This document shows positions 11,728 through 21,615 of a DNA stretch of 64,000 bases, one piece after another (position 1 is the stretch's first letter; the number at the start of each line of letters is the position of its first letter). The translations under genes were made by a program, and so were the position numbers. The notes beneath the pieces were generated by a model. The model had not been told where the DNA came from, ran no database searches, and saw only the letters and a list, made by a program, of their open reading frames with translations. The DNA lies in the NCBI RefSeq assembly GCF_055900595.2, contig NZ_CM148325.1; one strand, 5' to 3'.

Positions 11728-13116
11728 ATGTTTATCCTTGAAACGCTGAATTTTGTTGTTGATATACTTAAAGTGCCCGCGATACTGGTCGGCTTGATTG
11801 CCTTAATTGGTCTGGTTGCCCAGAAAAAATCTTTTTCAGATGTTGTTAAAGGTACAATTAAAACTATTCTCGGCTTTATTGTACTGGGCGGTGGTGCCAC
11901 TGTTTTGGTTGGTTCGTTAAATCCTCTTGGGAGTATGTTTGAACATGCCTTTAATATTCAGGGCATCATTCCGAATAATGAGGCTATTGTTTCTATTGCG
12001 CTGGAAAAATATGGCGCATCGACGGCCCTTATTATGGCATTTGGTATGGTGGCGAATATTATTGTTGCCCGCTTTACCCGCCTTAAATATATCTTCCTGA
12101 CCGGACACCACACATTTTACATGGCCTGCATGATTGGTGTGATTCTGACAGTGGCTGGTTTTGAAGGTATATCACTGGTCTTTACCGGTTCTCTTATTCT
12201 GGGACTTGTGATGGCATTTTTCCCGGCATTAGCACAACGCTATATGAAGCGTATTACGGGGAATGATGACATTGCTTTTGGTCACTTTGGCACTCTGGGA
12301 TATGTACTTTCTGGCTGGATTGGCAGCGTGTGCGGTAAAGGTTCCCGCTCCACCGAAGAGATGAATTTGCCCAAAAATCTGAGCTTCCTGCGCGACAGTT
12401 CCATCTCTATTTCTCTTACGATGATGGTGATTTATCTGATCATGGCGATCAGTGCTGGTCGTGAGTTCGTTGAAAGCCAGTTCAGTGGTGGTCAAAACTA
12501 CCTTGTCTACGCCATCATAATGGCCATCACCTTCGCTGCTGGTGTATTTATTATTCTGCAAGGCGTGCGTTTAATCCTTGCTGAAATAGTTCCGGCATTT
12601 ACCGGGTTTTCAGAAAAGCTGGTGCCGAATGCCCGTCCGGCCCTCGATTGCCCGGTTGTGTATCCGTATGCGCCAAACGCAGTGTTAGTTGGTTTCTTGT
12701 TTAGCTTTTTTGGCGGTCTGGTAGGGCTATTTTTGTTGGGACAGATGAAACTGGTGTTGATTCTTCCGGGTGTCGTTCCTCACTTTTTTACCGGGGCGGC
12801 TGCTGGCGTATTTGGTAACGCTACGGGGGGACGTCGTGGCGCAATGATTGGTGCTTTTGCGAATGGCTTATTGATTACCTTCCTGCCAGTACTGTTATTG
12901 CCGGTTCTTGGGGCGATAGGCTTTGCTAATACGACCTTTTCCGATGCAGATTTTGGTGCTGTCGGCATCGTCCTCGGAAACCTGGCACGTTATCTCTCAC
13001 CTTTTGCCATCACCGGACTTGTAGTAGCGCTATTTGTGCTGCTGGTTGCCTGGAACATTTTCGCCAGTAACAAAATCGCTGCCAAAGCGCAGAAGAAGAG
13101 TGGAGCCAAATCATGA
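11728..13116 (+). CDS. PTS EIIC permease (UlaA/SgaT ascorbate family)
   Basis: About 460-aa polytopic membrane protein; ATG at 11728 after GAGGTGG Shine-Dalgarno. Confidence 0.8.
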   Translation: MFILETLNFVVDILKVPAILVGLIALIGLVAQKKSFSDVVKGTIKTILGFIVLGGGATVLVGSLNPLGSMFEHAFNIQGIIPNNEAIVSIALEKYGASTALIMAFGMVANIIVARFTRLKYIFLTGHHTFYMACMIGVILTVAGFEGISLVFTGSLILGLVMAFFPALAQRYMKRITGNDDIAFGHFGTLGYVLSGWIGSVCGKGSRSTEEMNLPKNLSFLRDSSISISLTMMVIYLIMAISAGREFVESQFSGGQNYLVYAIIMAITFAAGVFIILQGVRLILAEIVPAFTGFSEKLVPNARPALDCPVVYPYAPNAVLVGFLFSFFGGLVGLFLLGQMKLVLILPGVVPHFFTGAAAGVFGNATGGRRGAMIGAFANGLLITFLPVLLLPVLGAIGFANTTFSDADFGAVGIVLGNLARYLSPFAITGLVVALFVLLVAWNIFASNKIAAKAQKKSGAKS

Positions 13117-13943
13117 ATGTTAAAGAATTGACTCAATTTGCACGGGATATACGTATCCAGACGCTTAAATCATTAACTCATCTCGGCTTCGGTCATTATG
13201 GTGGCAGCATGTCGGTTGTGGAAACGCTGGCAGTGCTTTATGGCGCTGTAATGAAAATTGATCCTGCTGCTCCCGACTGGCCTGAGCGTGACTATTTTAT
13301 CCTGTCCAAAGGACATGCCGGACCTGCTCTCTACAGTACTCTGGCGCTGAAAGGCTACTTTCCACTGGAAGAATTAAGCACCTTAAATCAGAACGGAACC
13401 CGCTTACCAAGTCATCCGGATCGGCTAAAAACGTGTGGTGTTGATAGCACCACAGGATCGCTGGGGCAGGGGATATCCATTGCCGGAGGGATGGCGCTGT
13501 CGCATAAACTGGCGGGGCGCAAGAATCGGGTTTTTTGTATTGTCGGCGATGGCGAACTTAATGAAGGCCAATGTTGGGAAGCTTTCCAGTTTATCGCGCA
13601 TCATCGTTTGAATAACCTCACTGTGTTTGTGGACTGGAACAAACAGCAGCTTGATGGTCAACTGGATGAAATTATTAATCCATTTGATTTGGAAGGAAAA
13701 TTCCGGGCTTTCGGTTTTGATGTCGTGACAGTGAAGGGCGATGATATTGAGGGCTTGTTGAATGTAGTTAAACCTGTCCTGCCAGCTGAGGCCAGACCGA
13801 GAGTGGTCATTCTCGATAGCATTAAAGGGCAGGGGGTGCCGTGTCTCGAGCAACTCAGTAATTCTCATCACTTACGCCTCACAGAAGAGATGAAGGGGAC
13901 GCTAAACGAAACAATTCGCCAACTGGAGGCTATGCATGATTAA
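13113..13943 (+). CDS. Transketolase, N-terminal (TPP-binding) subunit
   Basis: Split-transketolase N-half (HYGGSMS, GHAGPALY, IVGDGELNEGQ); start overlaps the EIIC stop. Confidence 0.85.
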   Translation: MNVKELTQFARDIRIQTLKSLTHLGFGHYGGSMSVVETLAVLYGAVMKIDPAAPDWPERDYFILSKGHAGPALYSTLALKGYFPLEELSTLNQNGTRLPSHPDRLKTCGVDSTTGSLGQGISIAGGMALSHKLAGRKNRVFCIVGDGELNEGQCWEAFQFIAHHRLNNLTVFVDWNKQQLDGQLDEIINPFDLEGKFRAFGFDVVTVKGDDIEGLLNVVKPVLPAEARPRVVILDSIKGQGVPCLEQLSNSHHLRLTEEMKGTLNETIRQLEAMHD

Positions 13944-14889
13944 TCTCGCACCGGCAGGACAAAAAGACAGCATTGAAATGCGCAAAGTTTATGCAGATTT
14001 TATCGCGCAACAGAGTAAAAACGTCAGTTCTGTCATTGCTCTTGAGGCTGATTTAATGAGTTCCATGGCAATGGACAGCGTGGCGCAGGATTATCCAGAT
14101 CACGTCATTAATTGCGGCATTATGGAAGCCAATGTTATCGGCACAGCTGCAGGGCTGGCCTTAACCGGGCGCAAGCCATTCGTGCATACCTTTACCGCAT
14201 TTGCCAGTCGTCGCTGTTTTGATCAACTCTTTATGTCGCTTGATTACCAGGGCGCTAACGTCAAAGTTATAGCTTCTGATGCGGGTGTTGCTGCTTGCCA
14301 CAATGGCGGAACACATATGTCATTTGAAGATATGGGAATTGTGCGCGGGCTGGCGCATTCGGTGGTGATGGAGATGACAGATGCCGTAATGTTCAGCGAT
14401 ATCTTGCGTCAACTCGTTGCACTGGAAGGATTTTATTGGATTCGTACCATTCGGAAGCAAGCAGCGAGTATTTACGCACCAGGTACAACCTTTACAATTG
14501 GCAAAGGGCAGGTATTACGTGAAGGTACGGATGTCACCTTAATTGCTAATGGCATTATGGTGGTGGAAGCCCTGGAGGCCGCACGTCAACTTGAGCTGGC
14601 TGGGGTAAGTGTAGCGGTGATTGATATGTTTACGCTCAAACCCGTTGATCGGATGTTAATTAAAAATTATGCCGAAAAAACAGGACGGATCGTAACATGT
14701 GAAAACCATAGTATTCATAATGGATTAGGTTCAGCAGTTGCTGAAGTGCTTGTAGAAACTTGTCCTGTGCCCATGCGTCGGGTGGGGGTTAAAGAGCGGT
14801 ATGGCCAGGTTGGAACTCAGGACTTTTTACAGAGAGAGTACGGGTTAACCGCGCAAGATATTGTGGCGGCAGCCAGAGAGCTATTGTAA
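13936..14889 (+). CDS. Transketolase, C-terminal subunit
   Basis: Transketolase pyrimidine-binding and C-terminal domains; start overlaps the N-subunit stop. Confidence 0.85.
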   Translation: MINLAPAGQKDSIEMRKVYADFIAQQSKNVSSVIALEADLMSSMAMDSVAQDYPDHVINCGIMEANVIGTAAGLALTGRKPFVHTFTAFASRRCFDQLFMSLDYQGANVKVIASDAGVAACHNGGTHMSFEDMGIVRGLAHSVVMEMTDAVMFSDILRQLVALEGFYWIRTIRKQAASIYAPGTTFTIGKGQVLREGTDVTLIANGIMVVEALEAARQLELAGVSVAVIDMFTLKPVDRMLIKNYAEKTGRIVTCENHSIHNGLGSAVAEVLVETCPVPMRRVGVKERYGQVGTQDFLQREYGLTAQDIVAAARELL

Positions 14890-15077
14890 TTCATGGAGTT
14901 TGTTTACCATTCTGTTTTTCTTAAAAGTGAGTGTCTGTGCGGTCACTAAACTCGGTAATAAAGCAGTTCATTGCAGGATAAGAAGCGTTTGGTTGTGTCG
15001 TTTTACCGTAAGAACCGACCGCCGTATGTAGCCATTAAGCCAGTATTGGTAACGTAGGTGCCCACCTTTTCAAACTG

Positions 15078-15337
15078 GTGGACGCCTGTTATGGAGCAAA
15101 AACATTATCCGCAGAACCCCGCAGATCATTTTCAAATGAGTTAAACTTCAAATGGTTAAACTGGTTTTGCAACCAGGAGCCTCTGTTGCCCGTATTGCCC
15201 GGGAACACGATATCAATGATAACCTCCTGTTCAAATGGCTCAGACTCTGGCAGAACGTAAGGTACAGGGAGATGAAAAAGGCAATAGCAGAACTGAGTGA
15301 CAGTGAAACCATTCTGGCGTACAGGGTTGGATGGTGA
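15078..15337 (+). pseudogene. IS66-family accessory transposase gene (tnpA-type) remnant
   Basis: ...QPGASVARIAREHDINDNLLFKWL... parallels the intact IS66-family orfA at 18862 (QPGACVAQIARENGINDNLLFNW) but is split across frames. Confidence 0.5.
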
Positions 15338-15835
15338 AACTGATAAAAAAACCCCTCTGAAAATTCTGTCAGAGGGGTGTAGTCAATAAGGGTGTCATAT
15401 TCAACATGAAGATGTCTTCTGGGAATGTTTACATAGCAAATGCTTTCACTCCGGTAATTAATTTCCGTGATTAACTGCTTTCGATCAATAAAGGAATTGC
15501 AAAAGTGTGATCTTGCTCACGACATTGTGGATGATAATATGCCTGATGTCTGAATCCGGAAACAGTGCTCTGGCGGGTTTCATGTGAAGTTGACGGATAA
15601 AAAATCCTCACGACCAGACAGACGTGCGGTTTACGAAATTCGTAACAAGAGGCTTTTCTACGGATCACGTGGTGCGTGCCACGTGAAATTTTTGTAGCGC
15701 AAAATGTGCAATGTGTAAATACAAGGAAGGAAAAAGTTAAATTGGTGGAAGTCCATGCCTGCCACATGTACGTCTGCATTCCTCGTTTTGAACAGAATTC
15801 TCACCAGACATCGTGAATTTCTCATTCAATCTGCA

Positions 15836-15960
15836 AAATGGCATCTGAATCGATCGCAGTTTGGCATTCGAATCGATCATGATTTGGCATCCATCTCCGA
15901 TCACAGTTTGGCATCACAATCGATCACGATTTGGCATGCTTCCGATCATTGATTGGCATC
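15836..15960 (+). repeat. Six spaced TTTGGCAT/TGGCAT repeats (IS21-family terminal multiple repeats)
   Basis: aaaatggcat..agtttggcat..gatttggcat..agtttggcat..gatttggcat..gattggcat at about 20-bp spacing. Confidence 0.6.
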
Positions 15961-16033
15961 CTGCCAGTCACTCCGGGAATTCACTCTTTTCACCACAGTC
16001 TCCATTGCCGTGTTTAAACCAGTGGAGACGTCA

Positions 16034-17599
16034 ATGTCCAGAAAGCGAAAATCCAGGAGCACTATGGAAACCTGTTTTAAGATCCTTCAGCTCAAGTTCG
16101 ACAAGAAGCTGACTAACCGTTGTATCGGACTGACGTTACACATCAGCGCCTCAACCGTTTTTGAGGTTATTGCCCGCTTCAAAGCCTCTTCTCTGCCATG
16201 GCCATTACCTGCTGATATATCCCATGACACGCTGGAGAAACTCATTTTTCCGCCCAAAGACACCTTTGCATCAGAGCTTGTAATGCCTGACATGTTGTAC
16301 TTCGATACGGAAATGAGAAAACCAGGTGTGACGCGGCAACTGCTGTGGATGGAATACAAGGCACAGGCAGGTGACAAAGCGATGGGATACTCGCACTTCT
16401 GCCTTTGCTACCGGGAGTGGAAAAAAACGCGACGTCTCTCCATGCGCCAGGAGCATCGTGCCGGCGAAAAGCTTTTTATCGACTTCTGTGGTCCTACTGT
16501 TCCTGTTATTAATCCGGACACCGGTGAGATACGCCGCGTGGCAATCTTCGTGGCCGTAATGGGGGCGTCCAAGTATACCTACGTTGAAGCGTGCGAAGGT
16601 CAGGACATGATGTCATGGTTAAATGCCCACAGCCGTTGCCTGACCTTCCTGGGCGGCGTACCGAAGCTGCTCATCCCCGATAACCTCAGAAGCGCAGTGA
16701 AAAAGACCGATCGCTATGAGCCTGTCATCAACGACAGTTATCAGGCACTGGCTGAGCACTATGGCACGGTTATCATCCCGGCCCGACCACGCAAACCTAA
16801 AGATAAACCAAAAGCAGAAAACGGCGTCCTCATCGTCGAACGATGGCTTCTTGCCCGCATCCGTAATGAAACCTTCCACACGCTCAGGGCGCTGAATGCG
16901 CGCCTTTGGGAGTTACTGACAGACATGAATAACCGGCCAATGAAGGGGTACGGCAATCAAACCCGTGCAGAACGCTTCCGCATACTGGATGCGCCAGCTC
17001 TCTCTCCGCTGCCTCTGACACCTTATGAATACACGGAATACAAAGCCGTGAAGGTTGGCCCTGACTACCACGTTGAATATGCCCGTCACTGGTACTCCGT
17101 TCCACACGAACTGGTCGGTCAGCGTCTGTCACTGAAAGCGGGGCAGTCGGTGGTACAGCTCTGGCACAAGGGGCAGTGTGTGGCACAACATCCGCGCAGC
17201 ACACATGAATATAAACACACAACCAATCCGCTTCACATGCCAGAGCGCCACCGGCAGCACGGGACATGGACACCGGAACGCCTTATCGGGCAGGGAAAAC
17301 GTACGGGCCCGTCCACAGGCCGGGTGGTTGAATCCATGCTGAAGGCAAAACCCCATCCGGAACTGGCTTATCGTGCAGTTCTGGGGCTGCTGGCACTTCA
17401 GAAAAAATACGGCCCGGAACGGCTGGAAAAGGCCTGTTACGTTGCCCTGCACTATAATGCCCCGGACAGACGCTTTATCGACAATCTGCTGCGTCACCAT
17501 CGGGAGAACCTGGAGCTTCCGTTATCCCGCCAGGGCGAACAACATCCGGCATATGCTTCAGAGCATGAAAACCTGTGTGGTCCGGGCTACTACCACTGA
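16034..17599 (+). CDS. istA: IS21-family transposase IstA
   Basis: N-terminal HTH then DDE core; ATG at 16034 after GGAGACG SD; the track ORF from 15953 is an upstream extension. Confidence 0.75.
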   Translation: MSRKRKSRSTMETCFKILQLKFDKKLTNRCIGLTLHISASTVFEVIARFKASSLPWPLPADISHDTLEKLIFPPKDTFASELVMPDMLYFDTEMRKPGVTRQLLWMEYKAQAGDKAMGYSHFCLCYREWKKTRRLSMRQEHRAGEKLFIDFCGPTVPVINPDTGEIRRVAIFVAVMGASKYTYVEACEGQDMMSWLNAHSRCLTFLGGVPKLLIPDNLRSAVKKTDRYEPVINDSYQALAEHYGTVIIPARPRKPKDKPKAENGVLIVERWLLARIRNETFHTLRALNARLWELLTDMNNRPMKGYGNQTRAERFRILDAPALSPLPLTPYEYTEYKAVKVGPDYHVEYARHWYSVPHELVGQRLSLKAGQSVVQLWHKGQCVAQHPRSTHEYKHTTNPLHMPERHRQHGTWTPERLIGQGKRTGPSTGRVVESMLKAKPHPELAYRAVLGLLALQKKYGPERLEKACYVALHYNAPDRRFIDNLLRHHRENLELPLSRQGEQHPAYASEHENLCGPGYYH

Positions 17600-17615
17600 C
17601 AGAAGGAACAACAGT

Positions 17616-18371
17616 ATGAGTGATAACCTGTTAAACAAACTGACCCAACTGAAACTCCCGGCGATGGCCGGGAGCCTGATACGGCAGCGGGAAACGCCTC
17701 AGACCTACGACGAGCTGTCGTTCGAGGAAAGGCTGACGCTGCTGGTTGATGACGAGCTTCTGAGCAGGGAAAACATCCGTGTGGCACGGTTGAGAAAAAA
17801 TGCCGGCCTGAAATACCAGGCAACACCGGAAGGGCTGCGCTATCCGGCCTCAAGAGGTCTGCGGGCTGAACAGATGAGGGAACTGCTGAACGGCCACTAC
17901 ATAACCCACAGGAAAAACCTGCTGATAACCGGTCCGACAGGATGTGGCAAGAGCTGGATAGCCAATGCGCTGGGCGAACAGGCATGTCGACAGAAACACA
18001 GCGTCCGGTACTGTAGAACCGGGCGATTACTGGAACAACTGGCTCAGGGACGTGTTGATGGCAGCTGGCTGAAGTATCTGAAACAGTTGCAAAAAATACA
18101 GGTTCTAATCCTGGACGATCTGGGGCTGGAGTCGTTAAGTAACGCCCAGTGTAATGACCTTCTGGAGCTCATAGAGGATCGTTACGGACAAAGCAGCACG
18201 ATAGTGGTAAGCCAGTTCCCGGTAGATAAATGGCATGGTCTGATGGAGAAGCCAACAACAGCAGATGCCATCCCGGACAGACTGGTACATAACTCACACA
18301 GACTAGTCCTTCAGGGAGAGTCCCTGAGGAAAAATCCCTCGATAGTGGAAAGCATCGAAAAAACGAGTTAA
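17616..18371 (+). CDS. istB: IS21-family ATP-binding helper IstB
   Basis: Walker A ITGPTGCGKSW and Walker B LILDDLG; ATG at 17616 just after the istA stop. Confidence 0.85.
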   Translation: MSDNLLNKLTQLKLPAMAGSLIRQRETPQTYDELSFEERLTLLVDDELLSRENIRVARLRKNAGLKYQATPEGLRYPASRGLRAEQMRELLNGHYITHRKNLLITGPTGCGKSWIANALGEQACRQKHSVRYCRTGRLLEQLAQGRVDGSWLKYLKQLQKIQVLILDDLGLESLSNAQCNDLLELIEDRYGQSSTIVVSQFPVDKWHGLMEKPTTADAIPDRLVHNSHRLVLQGESLRKNPSIVESIEKTS

Positions 18372-18861
18372 AAAGCGGTAGAAAAAGTTAAGTTCCCGGT
18401 TGATCGAATGGATGCGAATAGCTGATCGGACTTCGATGCCAATCCGTGATCGAATAGAGCGGAATACGCACTTTAACAACACAAAACATCATTTTTTGAA
18501 ACAATATTCACGGAACTTCTTATCCCTTCACTTCCCGTTTTATATGGGCAGCACCGTCTGTCTTTCCTATTGATGCGATTCGTATAATTTATTTTACCCA
18601 TGAGAAACTCACATTTAAATTTATGAGATGTCATATATGAAGAATAAGGAAATGCCCGGATAGGTGGATTGTGGAAAAGTTACTGGCAATAACTTAACTA
18701 CAATAACCGGCACGTTTTCAACGCTGGCGCAGGCAAGTGCGGACAAAACGGGATTCTTTATCACGGGTAAAACTTGTGCATCTGTGACGGTATTAATCCT
18801 GTTCATCAGTAAGCGCCTCATCTGAACCGTCTGGTCTGTTTCCTCCGGCTCCACAAAAATA

Positions 18862-19539
18862 ATGTCCATCATTTTTAATGGACACTATCGTATGGAATAC
18901 CGGACCTGGATCACCGAAGCTTTACGTCTTCACTTTGAAGAACATTTACCACGGATTGTGGCCGGACGTCGCCTGGGCGTACCAAAATCAACAGTTTGTG
19001 GTATGTTCGTGCGCTTCCGCAAAGCTGGCCTTTCATGGCCTCTGCCCGCAGGTATGTCGGAGCGGGAACTTGATGCCCGTCTTTACGGGAGTGCCTCCAC
19101 AGTACCTGTCGTACTTACTGAAAACACCGTTATGTCCGAAGTCCCGGTGGTAAAAAAACGTCCCCGGCGGCCTAATTTTCCTTATGAGTTTAAAATCGCC
19201 TTAGTGGAGCAGTCACTGCAGCCCGGAGCCTGTGTGGCGCAGATCGCCCGTGAAAACGGAATCAACGATAACCTGCTCTTCAACTGGCGCCATCAATACC
19301 GGAAAGGTGGCCTGCTGCCTTCCGGAAAAAATATGCCTGCACTGCTTCCCGTGACGTTAACGCCGGAGCCGGATAATAAAATCCCGGCTCCGGCACAGGA
19401 ACCAGAGCAGATAAATACACCGTCCGACAGTCTGTGCTGTGAGCTGGTTCTGCCGGCCGGAACTCTCAGGCTGAAAGGTGAACTGACACCGGCCTTATTA
19501 CAGACACTTATCCGCGAAATGAAAGTGAGCAGCCACTGA
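18862..19539 (+). CDS. IS66-family accessory protein (orfA)
   Basis: VAQIARENGINDNLLFNWRHQYRKGG HTH region; the N-terminal extension resembles an IstA-type HTH. Confidence 0.75.
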   Translation: MSIIFNGHYRMEYRTWITEALRLHFEEHLPRIVAGRRLGVPKSTVCGMFVRFRKAGLSWPLPAGMSERELDARLYGSASTVPVVLTENTVMSEVPVVKKRPRRPNFPYEFKIALVEQSLQPGACVAQIARENGINDNLLFNWRHQYRKGGLLPSGKNMPALLPVTLTPEPDNKIPAPAQEPEQINTPSDSLCCELVLPAGTLRLKGELTPALLQTLIREMKVSSH

Positions 19540-19886
19540 TGATATCTCTCCCTGCAGGTTCGCGTATCTGGCTGGTTGCCGGTATCACCGACATGCGAAA
19601 TGGCTTTAACGGCCTGGCCTCAAAAGTTCAGAACGTCCTGAAGGATGACCCGTTCTCCGGACACCTGTTCATCTTCCGCGGACGCCGGGGTGACCAGATA
19701 AAAGTGTTGTGGGCTGACAGTGACGGACTGTGCCTCTTCACCAAACGCCTGGAGCGGGGCCGCTTCGTCTGGCCGGTCACCCGTGACGGCAAGGTGCACC
19801 TTACTCCGGCCCAGTTATCCATGCTTCTTGAGGGCATCGACTGGAAACATCCAAAACGAACGGAACGCGCTGGAATCCGCATATAA
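19539..19886 (+). CDS. IS66-family TnpB
   Basis: 115 aa, MISLPAGSRIWLVAGITDMRNGFNGLA signature. Confidence 0.85.
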   Translation: MISLPAGSRIWLVAGITDMRNGFNGLASKVQNVLKDDPFSGHLFIFRGRRGDQIKVLWADSDGLCLFTKRLERGRFVWPVTRDGKVHLTPAQLSMLLEGIDWKHPKRTERAGIRI

Positions 19887-19905
19887 CCCGTTGTAAAGTG
19901 AGGAT

Positions 19906-21477
19906 ATGGACACCTCACTTGCTCATGAGAACGCCCGCCTGCGGGCACTGTTGCAGGCGCAACAGGACACCATCCGCCAGATGGCCGAATACAATTGCCT
20001 GCTCTCACAGCGGGTGGCGGCTTATGCTTCTGAAATCAACCGGCTGAAGGCGCTGGTTGCAAAACTGCAGCGCATGCAGTTCGGTAAAAGCTCAGAAAAA
20101 CTTCGCGCAAAAACCGAACGACAGATACAGGAAGCACAGGAGCGAATCAGCGCACTTCAGGAAGAAATGGCGGAAACACTGGGTGAGCAATATGACCCGG
20201 CACTGCCATCTTCCCTGCGCCAGTCTTCAGCCCGTAAACCGTTACCGGCTGCACTTCCCCGTGAATCCCGGGTTATCCGGCCGGAAGAGGAATGCTGCCC
20301 GGCTTGTGGTGGCGAACTCAGTTCTCTGGGATGTGATGTGTCAGAGCAACTGGAGCTTATCAGCAGCGCCTTTAAGGTTATCGAAACACAACGTCCGAAA
20401 CTGGCCTGTTGCCGGTGCGACCATATCGTGCAGGCACCAGTACCTTCAAAACCCATTGCACGCAGTTATGCCGGAGCGGGGCTTCTGGCTCATATCGTCA
20501 CCGGGAAGTATGCAGACCATCTGCCGTTATACCGCCAGTCAGAAATATACCGTCGTCAGGGCGTGGAACTGAGCCGCGCCACGCTGGGGCGCTGGACCAG
20601 TGCCGTTGCTGAACTGCTGGAGCCGCTGTATGACGTGCTGCGCCAGTATGTGCTGATGCCCGGTAAAGTCCATGCGGATGATATCCCCGTTCCGGTCCAG
20701 GAGCCGGGCAGTGGTAAAACAAGAACTGCCCGGCTGTGGGTTTACGTCCGTGATGACCGTAACGCCGGTTCACAGATGCCCCCGGCGGTCTGGTTCGCGT
20801 ACAGCCCGGACCGGAAAGGTATCCATCCACAGAATCACCTGGCCGGTTACAGCGGTGTGCTTCAGGCCGATGCTTACGGTGGTTACCGGGCGTTATACGA
20901 ATCCGGCAGAATAACGGAAGCCGCGTGTATGGCCCATGCCCGGAGAAAAATCCACGATGTGCATGCAAGAGCGCCTACCGATATCACCACGGAAGCCCTG
21001 CAGCGTATCGGTGAACTGTATGCAATCGAGGCAGAGGTCCGGGGATGTTCAGCAGAACAGCGTCTGGCGGCAAGAAAAGCCAGAGCTGTGCCACTGATGC
21101 AGTCACTGTACGACTGGATACAGACTCAGATGAAAACACTGTCGCGTCACTCAGATACGGCAAAAGCGTTCGCATACCTGCTGAAACAGTGGGATGCACT
21201 GAACGTGTACTGCAGTAATGGCTGGGTGGAAATCGACAACAACATCGCAGAGAACGCCTTACGGGGAGTGGCCGTAGGCCGGAAAAACTGGATGTTCGCG
21301 GGTTCCGACAGCGGTGGTGAACATGCGGCGGTGTTGTACTCGCTGATCGGCACATGCCGTCTGAACAATGTGGAGCCAGAAAAGTGGCTGCGTTACGTCA
21401 TTGAACATATCCAGGACTGGTCGGCAAACCGGGTACGCGATCTGTTGCCCTGGAAAGTTGATCTGAGCTCTCAGTAA
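19906..21477 (+). CDS. IS66-family transposase TnpC
   Basis: 523 aa with N-terminal coiled coil, CxxC zinc motifs and DDE region. Confidence 0.85.
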
Positions 21478-21615
21478 ATATCAATACGGTTCTGACGAGC
21501 CGCTTACTATTCAGCAATGATGCTATTTTTTTTGAAGTAGATCACATTATCTGTGTTTCCCTTCCAGATTTATTTAGATAGTCTGATTTCTCGGTTTTAA
21601 TAAAAGGGGGAAGTA

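What the first reader, a model, noticed from the sequence alone, without database searches (positions are those of the whole stretch)
15790..18500. IS21-family element with a six-fold TGGCAT terminal repeat array
An intact istA/istB element sits between a decayed IS66-family tnpA fragment (15078..15337) and a complete ISEc8-like IS66 element. Its left end carries six TTTGGCAT-type repeats at roughly 20-bp spacing (15836..15960) and the right end an inverted copy. Stacking of two IS66-family relics around an IS21-family element implies serial insertion and deletion at this site.
Basis: partly seen in the sequence, partly recalled or inferred. Interest (0 to 1): 0.3.

Follow-up and report, generated by a model that had tools for sequence, protein, structure and literature searches.

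The report
Ordinary ISSso4-type IS21 insertion sequence
This is a full-length copy of a common, already annotated enterobacterial jumping gene of the IS21 family, and its six-fold end repeat is that family's normal set of transposase docking sites, so the finding is real but ordinary.

Summary
Window 15832..18470 (2639 bp, not 15790..18500) is a complete IS21-family element with open istA (16034..17599) and istB (16-bp gap, 17616..18371).

- **Identity:** it is 98.3% identical to hundreds of E. coli copies that PGAP labels IS21 family / ISSso4 family, and 95.6% identical to a Shigella sonnei copy.
- **Ends:** eleven independent copies fix them exactly as TGCAAAATGGCAT... and ...GGAATACGCA.
- **Left repeats:** the left end carries six direct units (xTTGGCAT, about 5 nt, then ATCGATC) spaced 23, 23, 24, 23 and 22 bp apart.
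- **Right repeats:** the right end carries three inverted units.
- **Family fit:** 23 bp is the published IS21-family repeat spacing. Relatives have 3 to 6 such units at the left end (ISPsy40 has six, IS408 five).
- **Function:** the units are best read as IstA binding sites. Motif columns are nearly invariant in relatives down to 83% identity, while the spacers vary. Natural variants with only three left units still carry target duplications, so units L2-L4 are probably accessory.
- **This copy:** other copies have 5-7 bp target duplications, but this one has none, and its two flanks come from unrelated loci. It sits at a rearrangement joint, at the left edge of a 12-kb IS-rich mosaic that interrupts a YadA-like adhesin gene.
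- **Neighbour:** the adjacent complete IS66 element is ISCro1-like, not ISEc8-like.

Interest is low.

The parts
15832..18470 (+). Complete IS21-family insertion sequence of the ISSso4 type, 2639 bp, with 5'-TG...CA-3' termini
   Evidence: The ends are identical in 11 independent copies with different flanks. It is 98.3% identical to the common E. coli variant and 95.6% to a Shigella sonnei copy.
15832..15970 (+). Left terminal array of six direct 23-bp-phased units, L1-L6. Units are 15832-15855, 15855-15878, 15878-15901, 15902-15925, 15925-15948 and 15947-15970. Each has xTTGGCAT followed by (A/C)TC(G/C)GATC; L6 lacks the second half-site.
   Evidence: Repeat and pattern searches and the unit listing. 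Across relatives, 2 of 83 motif columns vary against 20 of 53 spacer columns.
18401..18470 (-). Right terminal array of three units in inverted orientation, R1-R3. R1 is 18447-18470 (degenerate), R2 is 18425-18448 (perfect GGCAT/GATC) and R3 is 18401-18424.
   Evidence: The segment 18399..18470 is invariant across the five aligned relatives except for three single-base positions (18413, 18420, 18429).
16034..17599 (+). istA, a DDE transposase of 521 aa (alternative start 16064 gives the 511 aa used by PGAP). Catalytic candidates are D150, D216 and E262.
   Evidence: NF033546 at 273 bits; Pfam rve plus Mu-transpos_C_2. It aligns to IS5376 IstA (8q4d/8b4h) at E 2.4e-13.
17616..18371 (+). istB, the AAA+ helper ATPase of 251 aa. 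Walker A is GPTGCGKS at residue 106 and Walker B is LILDD at 164. It carries a private L220P change.
   Evidence: NF038214 at 248 bits; PF01695. Private substitutions are listed.
15998..16029 (+). Predicted RNA hairpin (GUCUCCAUUG / CAGUGGAGAC) that covers the istA Shine-Dalgarno GGAG at 16024-16027
   Evidence: Fold z-score is -2.16. Three one-sided, pair-preserving changes occur in the 83%-identical Enterobacter copy. Function is inferred, not shown.
15143..15334 (+). Context: short relic of an IS66-family tnpA, not part of the IS21-type element
   Evidence: NF038385 positions 97-135 at E 4e-15; tblastn. PGAP marks the same relic as a frameshifted partial transposase in L001, L009 and L024.
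18471..18808 (+). Context: 338-bp fragment of an unrelated intergenic region (yebF-like to polysaccharide deacetylase), trapped between the two IS elements
   Evidence: It is 96-98% identical to 30 E. coli chromosomes, and only over this stretch.
18809..21507 (+). Context: complete ISCro1-like IS66-family element (tnpA 18862-19539, tnpB 19539-19886, tnpC 19906-21477) with no 8-bp target duplication

Best explanation
Window 15832..18470 is one full-length copy of a widespread enterobacterial IS21-family insertion sequence of the ISSso4 type. It belongs to the subgroup with a long IstA (about 510-520 aa) that also includes IS408, IS1162, ISPsy40 and ISEc12.

The 'TGGCAT array' is the element's own left terminal inverted-repeat region. 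It holds six direct copies of a bipartite site (xTTGGCAT, about 5 nt, then ATCGATC) phased every 23 bp, starting at the very first base. Three copies lie in inverted orientation at the right end.

By homology with the IS5376 IstA-DNA structures, each unit is a binding site for the N-terminal helix-turn-helix region of one IstA subunit. The two outermost units at each end (L1/L2, R1/R2) would be held by the IstA tetramer, which cleaves at the terminal CA and, once activated by IstB bound to target DNA, inserts the element with a 5-7 bp duplication.

The inner units (L3-L6, R3) are accessory sites. They are probably extra transposase docking or regulatory sites lying between the end and istA. 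They are not strictly required, because natural variants lacking L2-L4 are still found flanked by target duplications.

Shown here: the element's identity, its exact ends, the repeat geometry, the conservation pattern and the existence of short variants. Inferred: IstA binding, and the division of roles between outer and inner units.

This particular copy has no target duplication and joins two unrelated sequences. It was therefore a substrate of a later rearrangement, most likely homologous recombination between two copies of the IS. It now forms the left edge of a 12-kb IS-rich mosaic that replaced the 5' part of a YadA-like adhesin gene.
For: - **Family identity:** NCBIfam and Pfam assign IstA and IstB.
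- **Abundance:** 2472 E. coli records and 504 plasmid records match. The best full-length copies are 98.2-98.4% identical, and PGAP labels them 'IS21 family transposase' and 'ISSso4 family helper ATPase IstB'.
- **Ends:** identical ends in 11 copies, with 5-7 bp duplications in 9 of them.
- **Repeat geometry:**
- **Conservation:** in relatives of 98% to 83% identity, 2 of 83 motif columns vary against 20 of 53 spacer columns (Fisher p = 6e-8, alignment).
- **Same design in relatives:** counts read from the 23-bp-register display are ISPsy40 six, IS408 five, ISAs29, ISAs27, IS1162 and a Sinorhizobium meliloti element four, ISEc12 three, all phased at 23 bp. The automatic chain count, a lower bound, gave 3-5 for these relatives and 6 for the window element, while 200 shuffles gave mostly chains of 1-2 and 3 in only three of them.
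- **Three-unit variants:** 2569-bp elements with a 70-bp deletion fusing L1 to L5 carry duplications AGGCT (L025) and ATCTAAG (L027). The same deletion is present in an E. albertii copy at a third site.
- **No duplication and unrelated flanks in the window copy:**
Against: - No binding or transposition experiment exists for this element. Assigning the units as IstA sites rests on homology with a distant relative: IS5376 IstA aligns only over residues 87-383 at E 2.4e-13, and the N-terminal DNA-binding region does not align.
- The motif classes in the conservation test were defined from the window sequence itself, and only five related, non-independent sequences were compared.
- The three-unit variants could have lost L2-L4 after insertion. 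The same 70-bp deletion sits in two diverged backbones (99.7% and about 96% identical to the common long form). That fits either recurrent deletion at an 8-bp microhomology or transfer of the deletion between copies.
- This copy has 21 private substitutions, 11 nonsynonymous against 8 synonymous. They include IstB L220P and IstA R124L, R292W and R515C, at positions conserved even in the 83% relative. 'Intact' therefore means open reading frames, not proven activity.
- No sigma-70-like promoter was found on the + strand inside the element, so a regulatory role for the inner units is conjecture.
Confidence: 0.9

Rival explanations
1. The missing target duplication arose from IS-mediated intramolecular transposition (an adjacent deletion or inversion made by this copy itself), not from homologous recombination between two copies.
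For: About 0.5-0.7 kb of ancestral sequence next to the left junction is missing: L001 6134-6651 and L024 8202-8899 have no counterpart in the window. One original flank would be retained, as expected for an adjacent deletion.
Against: The right flank is not sequence from further along the same locus. It is a 338-bp piece of an unrelated island, followed by another IS that also lacks a duplication. IS21-family elements are thought to move by a copy-out/paste-in or tandem-junction route (PMC11208146), which does not typically make adjacent deletions. No second copy or reciprocal junction is present in the window.
Confidence: 0.2
2. The junctions are an assembly artefact: a 2.6-kb multicopy repeat was used to join two contigs that are not adjacent in the genome.
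For: None of 5426 complete E. coli genomes shares either junction, and no record covers 80% or more of window 13000-22000. The next IS also joins unrelated sequences.
Against: The remainder of the interrupted adhesin locus resumes 12 kb downstream in the same orientation (28064-28981 and onward to 29921, matching L001 and L009). This is what a real insertion or replacement mosaic looks like, and it is unlikely from random misjoins. IS-rich islands commonly have such joints. No reads are available to test this.
Confidence: 0.08
3. The 23-bp array is a neutral tandem duplication (a minisatellite-like expansion of the end), or a binding array for a host or plasmid protein such as iteron-type sites, and not a set of transposase sites.
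For: A period-47 super-repeat (83% matches) suggests growth by duplication of a two-unit block. Units L2-L4 can be lost without destroying the element. Plasmid iterons have similar unit lengths (own knowledge).
Against: The array starts at base 1 of the element and is mirrored at the other end. Every chromosomal and plasmid copy carries it. Motif columns are conserved while spacers drift. Unrelated motifs with the same 23-bp phasing sit at the ends of IstA relatives only 37-47% identical, as expected if each transposase recognises its own ends. The 23-bp spacing is the published IstA repeat spacing. The six-unit form outnumbers the three-unit form (461 against 32 records at 99% identity or more).
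Confidence: 0.04

Closest known systems
ISSso4 (IS21 family, Shigella sonnei) and its common E. coli variant, annotated by PGAP as 'IS21 family transposase' and 'ISSso4 family helper ATPase IstB'
   Same: Same length (2639 bp), same termini, same six-plus-three repeat arrays and same gene order. Nucleotide identity is 98.3% to the E. coli variant and 95.6% to a Shigella sonnei plasmid copy.
   Different: This copy has 21 private substitutions and no target duplication. The ISfinder reference sequence could not be consulted, so the name rests on PGAP labels of near-identical copies.
Long-IstA IS21 subgroup: IS408, IS1162, ISPsy40, ISAs27, ISAs29, ISBmu3, ISEc12
   Same: IstA of 505-527 aa, 41-47% identical over the full length. 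IstB is about 250 aa. Left ends carry 3-6 direct units phased at 23 bp (about 21 bp in ISBmu3), and right ends carry 2-4.
   Different: The unit sequences are unrelated (for example GATTCCAC in ISPsy40, CGTGATCAC in IS408). Several relatives (ISAs29, IS1162, ISEc12) also carry inverted copies internal to the direct ones, which were not seen here.
IS5376 and IS21 (structural and genetic prototypes)
   Same: DDE IstA plus AAA+ IstB, TG...CA ends, multiple terminal repeats 23 bp apart, two repeats per end engaged by an IstA tetramer, and a short target duplication (PMC10122671, PMC11208146).
   Different: Prototype IstA is about 390-400 aa, and IS5376 IstA aligns only over residues 87-383. The papers describe the prototypes with L1/L2 and R1/R2. 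Here there are six left and three right units, and the duplication is 5-7 bp, mostly 6, instead of 5.
Phage Mu and Tn7 ends (multiple transposase sites per end)
   Same: Asymmetric numbers of phased transposase sites at the two ends, with only the outer ones seen in the catalytic core. The comparison is drawn by the authors of PMC10122671.
   Different: These are different transposase families and site sequences. The resemblance is an analogy of design only.

Membership tests
IS21 family | Two consecutive genes: istA (DDE transposase with an rve core and a Mu-type C-terminal beta-barrel) followed by istB (AAA+ helper ATPase) | tested here: met
   NF033546 at 273 bits (cutoff 160); NF038214 at 248 bits (cutoff 200); PF00665, PF22483 and PF01695. 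There is a 16-bp gap between the genes.
IS21 family | Catalytic DDE triad in IstA and Walker A/B motifs in IstB | tested here: met
   D150 (FIDF), D216 (PDN) and E262 (AENG) align with the IS5376 IstA motifs. GPTGCGKS is at residue 106 and LILDD at 164. Activity was not tested.
IS21 family | Terminal inverted repeats ending 5'-TG...CA-3' | tested here: met
   TGCAAAATGGCAT... / ...GGAATACGCA, identical in 11 copies.
IS21 family | Multiple direct repeats within each end, about 23 bp apart (L1, L2...; R1, R2...) | tested here: met
   Six left and three right units with spacing of 22-24 bp. The family rule is taken from PMC10122671.
IS21 family | Short target-site duplication (4-8 bp) | tested here: not met
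   The element type makes 5-7 bp duplications: 6 bp in five copies, 5 bp in one and 7 bp in three. This copy has none (TCAATC against CTTTAA). That argues for a later rearrangement, not against family membership.
IS21 family | IstA binds the terminal repeats, and IstB-dependent transposition occurs | not testable with these tools
   Needs biochemistry or genetics.
ISSso4 (same IS or isoform) | Nucleotide identity of about 95% or more to the ISfinder reference, with the same ends (the ISfinder naming convention, from own knowledge) | tested here: inconclusive
   Identity is 95.6% to a Shigella sonnei plasmid copy whose IstB PGAP labels ISSso4 family, with identical ends. The ISfinder reference itself was not available, and the 98.3% E. 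coli variant may carry its own ISfinder name.
   Against a PGAP 'ISEc8 family' copy, TnpC is 59%, TnpB 77% and TnpA 43% identical (and 126 aa against 225 aa). Against an 'ISCro1 family' copy they are 97.5%, 99% and 92%. IS66-family membership itself is met (NF033517, NF033819, NF038385).

The most novel reading that the evidence does not exclude
The inner units (L3-L6, R3) may not be spare sites. They could form a functional accessory array, for example an extended IstA-DNA wrap that favours synapsis on supercoiled DNA, or an operator that titrates IstA over the istA leader. That would explain why the six-unit form is about 14 times more common than the three-unit deletion form, and why long-IstA IS21 elements keep 4-6 phased units when the solved transpososome needs only two per end.
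Probability: 0.3. Interest if true: 0.3.

Novelty: already known. Interest (0 to 1): 0.1.

Why it matters
It matters little beyond annotation. The element is a common, already annotated IS, and its multi-repeat ends are a textbook property of the IS21 family.

Three things are useful:
- Exact coordinates for masking and annotation (15832..18470).
- The recognition that this copy and the neighbouring IS66 copy are recombination joints. They bound a 12-kb IS-rich mosaic that carries a serine-protease autotransporter gene and disrupts a YadA-like adhesin gene. This is relevant to how the island was assembled and to checking the assembly.
- A small natural experiment for IS21 mechanics: six-unit and three-unit left ends both exist with target duplications.

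Tried and rejected
- **Bare octamer:** TTTGGCAT alone is not enriched in the window (7 found, 4.4 expected). Only the longer unit pattern is significant.
- **Source record:** no plasmid or complete E. coli genome covers 80% or more of window 13000-22000, so the exact junctions could not be confirmed in another assembly.
- **Internal promoter:** I looked for an istA promoter and for a junction promoter that would form when the ends abut, as described for IS21 (own knowledge). The consensus scan found no + strand sigma-70-like site in 15600..18700. By eye, no convincing -35 in the right end pairs with CAAAAT in the left end. I dropped this line.
- **Alternative termini:** I considered whether the inner units are nested alternative ends. 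This was rejected because all 11 full-length copies use the same left end, and only L1 begins with TG.
- **ISSso4 literature:** papers mentioning ISSso4 only list the element and say nothing about its ends.
- **Second copy in the window:** the only other IS21-family sequence is a different, IS100-like element at about 31.6-33.6 kb. It cannot be the recombination partner.
- **Not run:** structure prediction and the large protein-database searches, because family assignment was already unambiguous.
Full report
**What is there**

Reading window 14800..19200 and listing ORFs shows two consecutive + strand genes.

- The first runs from ATG 16034 to 17599 (521 aa); PGAP starts equivalent copies at the position of 16064. 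It is an IS21-family transposase (NF033546, 273 bits; Pfam rve plus Mu-transpos_C_2).
- The second, 17616..18371 (251 aa), is an IstB helper ATPase (NF038214, 248 bits; PF01695).
- The catalytic candidates D150, D216 and E262 and the Walker A/B motifs are present.

**Exact ends**

A megablast of 15700..18560 against 5426 complete E. coli genomes hit 2472 records. Full-length matches start at window 15817-15832 and stop at 18470-18484.

I fetched eleven full-length copies with different flanks: eight from E. coli, one from Shigella sonnei, one from an STEC plasmid and one from an Enterobacter plasmid only 83% identical.

- All begin TGCAAAATGGCAT and end GGAATACGCA.
- Ten are 2639 bp; the Enterobacter relative is 2646 bp.
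- Nine of the eleven are flanked by direct duplications of 5-7 bp, mostly 6 (GTATGG, GTTATTC, GCTAT, GTCAAT, GCTTTA, CTCTAA, TTCAAA, CTCAGGC, GTTAACG).
- The window copy has none (TCAATC on the left, CTTTAA on the right).

**The repeat array**

- The left end holds six units whose GGCAT cores end at element positions 13, 36, 59, 83, 106 and 128. Spacing is 23, 23, 24, 23 and 22 bp.
- Five of the six are followed by (A/C)TC(G/C)GATC.
- The right end holds three units in inverted orientation: one perfect and two degenerate.
- Tandem Repeats Finder reports period 23, plus a better-matching period 47. This suggests growth by duplication of a two-unit block.
- The 17-nt unit pattern occurs 7 times in the 64-kb window against 0.62 expected, and every occurrence is in these two ends.
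- The bare octamer alone is not significant.

**What the array is**

The IS21 literature states the following (PMC10122671; PMC11208146):

- The terminal inverted repeats are built of multiple direct repeats, usually at least two, separated by 23 bp.
- Two complete repeats per end are required for integration.
- The helix-turn-helix domains of the catalytic and structural subunits of the IstA tetramer contact R1 and R2 in the same way.

The array here has exactly that geometry. Three further observations support a protein-binding role.

1. Across relatives from 98% down to 83% identity, only 2 of 83 motif columns vary, against 20 of 53 spacer columns (p = 6e-8). The right-end array is invariant apart from three single-base positions.
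2. IstA relatives only 37-47% identical carry their own, unrelated motifs with the same 23-bp phasing. Read from the sequences printed in 23-bp register, ISPsy40 has six, IS408 five, ISAs29, ISAs27, IS1162 and a Sinorhizobium element four, and ISEc12 three. The automatic chain count gave 3-5 for these relatives, while shuffled sequence mostly gave chains of one or two and reached three in only 3 of 200 shuffles.
3. An IS100-like element elsewhere in the window has about two repeats per end.

Six units is therefore the top of the normal range for this subgroup, not an exception.

**Natural variation**

Some copies have a 2569-bp form in which a 70-bp deletion fuses L1 to L5, leaving three left units.

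- It occurs on an E. coli plasmid with duplication AGGCT.
- It occurs on an E. coli chromosome with duplication ATCTAAG.
- It occurs on an E. albertii plasmid at a third site.
- Junction-specific queries give 32 records at 99% identity or more for the short end and 461 for the long end.

The inner units are thus probably dispensable for insertion, though the deletions could post-date insertion. The six-unit form predominates.

**State of this copy**

It differs from the common E. coli variant at 44 positions: none in the left array and one in the right.

- Twenty-one substitutions are private to it.
- In coding sequence these split 11 nonsynonymous to 8 synonymous.
- They include IstB L220P and IstA R124L, R292W and R515C, at positions conserved even in the 83% relative.

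The genes are open, but activity is not assured.

**Surroundings**

- **Left flank.** Window 14711..15831 is colinear with E. coli islands in which it leads into a YadA-like adhesin gene (L001, L009, L024). The short IS66 tnpA relic (about 15143..15334) lies in this shared sequence in strains with no IS21-type element at this position, so it predates this insertion and is unrelated to it.
- **Right flank.** Window 18471..18808 is a 338-bp piece of an unrelated intergenic region, found in 30 chromosomes between a yebF-like gene and a polysaccharide deacetylase gene.
- **IS66 neighbour.** It is followed at 18809..21507 by a complete IS66-family element that is ISCro1-like, not ISEc8-like. It also lacks its 8-bp duplication, while a reference copy has ATTCTCGC.
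- **Further downstream.** Next come a 1371-aa serine-protease autotransporter gene (21616..25731) and IS110/IS3 debris.
- **Adhesin locus resumes.** The locus picks up again at about 28064-28123.
- **Comparison strain.** In strain P19_598 the same IS type sits inside that adhesin gene, at the site equivalent to window 28135-28140. That site is empty in the window.

The element is therefore the left boundary of a 12.2-kb IS-rich mosaic that replaced about 0.5-0.7 kb of the adhesin locus. Its mismatched flanks are most simply explained by recombination between two copies of the IS. An IS-mediated deletion or an assembly misjoin cannot be excluded without the rest of the genome or the reads.

**Verdict**

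The family assignment and the idea of serial rearrangement hold. The 'two relics', 'ISEc8-like' and 'special array' elements do not. This is an already known element with family-typical ends, and interest is low.

Noticed in passing
window 16079-16273 (IstA aa 16-80) and 18922-19158 (IS66 TnpA N-terminus): The N-terminal region of this IstA matches the NCBIfam model of the IS66 accessory protein TnpA (NF038385 positions 7-71, E 2.8e-14). It aligns at 29% identity with the N-terminus of the neighbouring 225-aa ISCro1-type TnpA. The ISEc8-type TnpA (126 aa) lacks this extension. Two different IS families appear to share a DNA-binding module.
   Followed up: partly
window about 31610-33583: A second, different IS21-family element (IS100-like). 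Its istA is split by a frameshift (31708-31989 and 31986-32729) and its istB (32726-33508) is intact. It has only about two GATCCAC-type repeats per end.
   Followed up: partly
window 18809-21507: The complete ISCro1-like IS66 element has no 8-bp target duplication (GTTCATCA against TATTCAGC), so it is also a recombination joint. From 18810 to at least 22000 (the end of the query) it is 100% identical to a stretch of an avian E. coli plasmid that runs into the S6-peptidase gene.
   Followed up: partly
window 15832-28123: A 12-kb IS-rich mosaic replaces the 5' part of a YadA-like trimeric adhesin gene, whose 3' part survives at 28064-28981. The mosaic holds the IS21-type element, a 338-bp foreign fragment, the IS66 element, a 1371-aa serine-protease autotransporter gene at 21616-25731, and IS110/IS3 debris at 25833-28048.
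   Followed up: partly
loci L025 (193-2762), L026 and L027 (2701-5269): Natural deletion variants of the same IS have three instead of six left-end units (a 70-bp loss fusing L1 to L5). They are flanked by intact 5- and 7-bp duplications. The same deletion occurs on two backbones about 3% apart, which suggests recurrent deletion or exchange between copies.
   Followed up: yes
window 15998-16029: A 10-bp hairpin in the istA leader sequesters the Shine-Dalgarno GGAG (fold z = -2.2). Pairing is kept through three one-sided changes in an 83%-identical relative. This may be translational damping of read-through transcripts.
   Followed up: partly
window 53762-54421 (minus strand) and 18471-18808: The window contains a diverged (85-89%) inverted paralogue of the yebF-like region. 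It overlaps by about 55 bp the sequence from which the 338-bp fragment next to the IS derives.
   Followed up: no
loci L016 (1272-1317), L020 (1275-1340), L011 (867-912): In ISAs29, IS1162 and ISEc12 the direct left-end units are followed by two or three copies of the same motif in inverted orientation. This was not seen in the window element.
   Followed up: no
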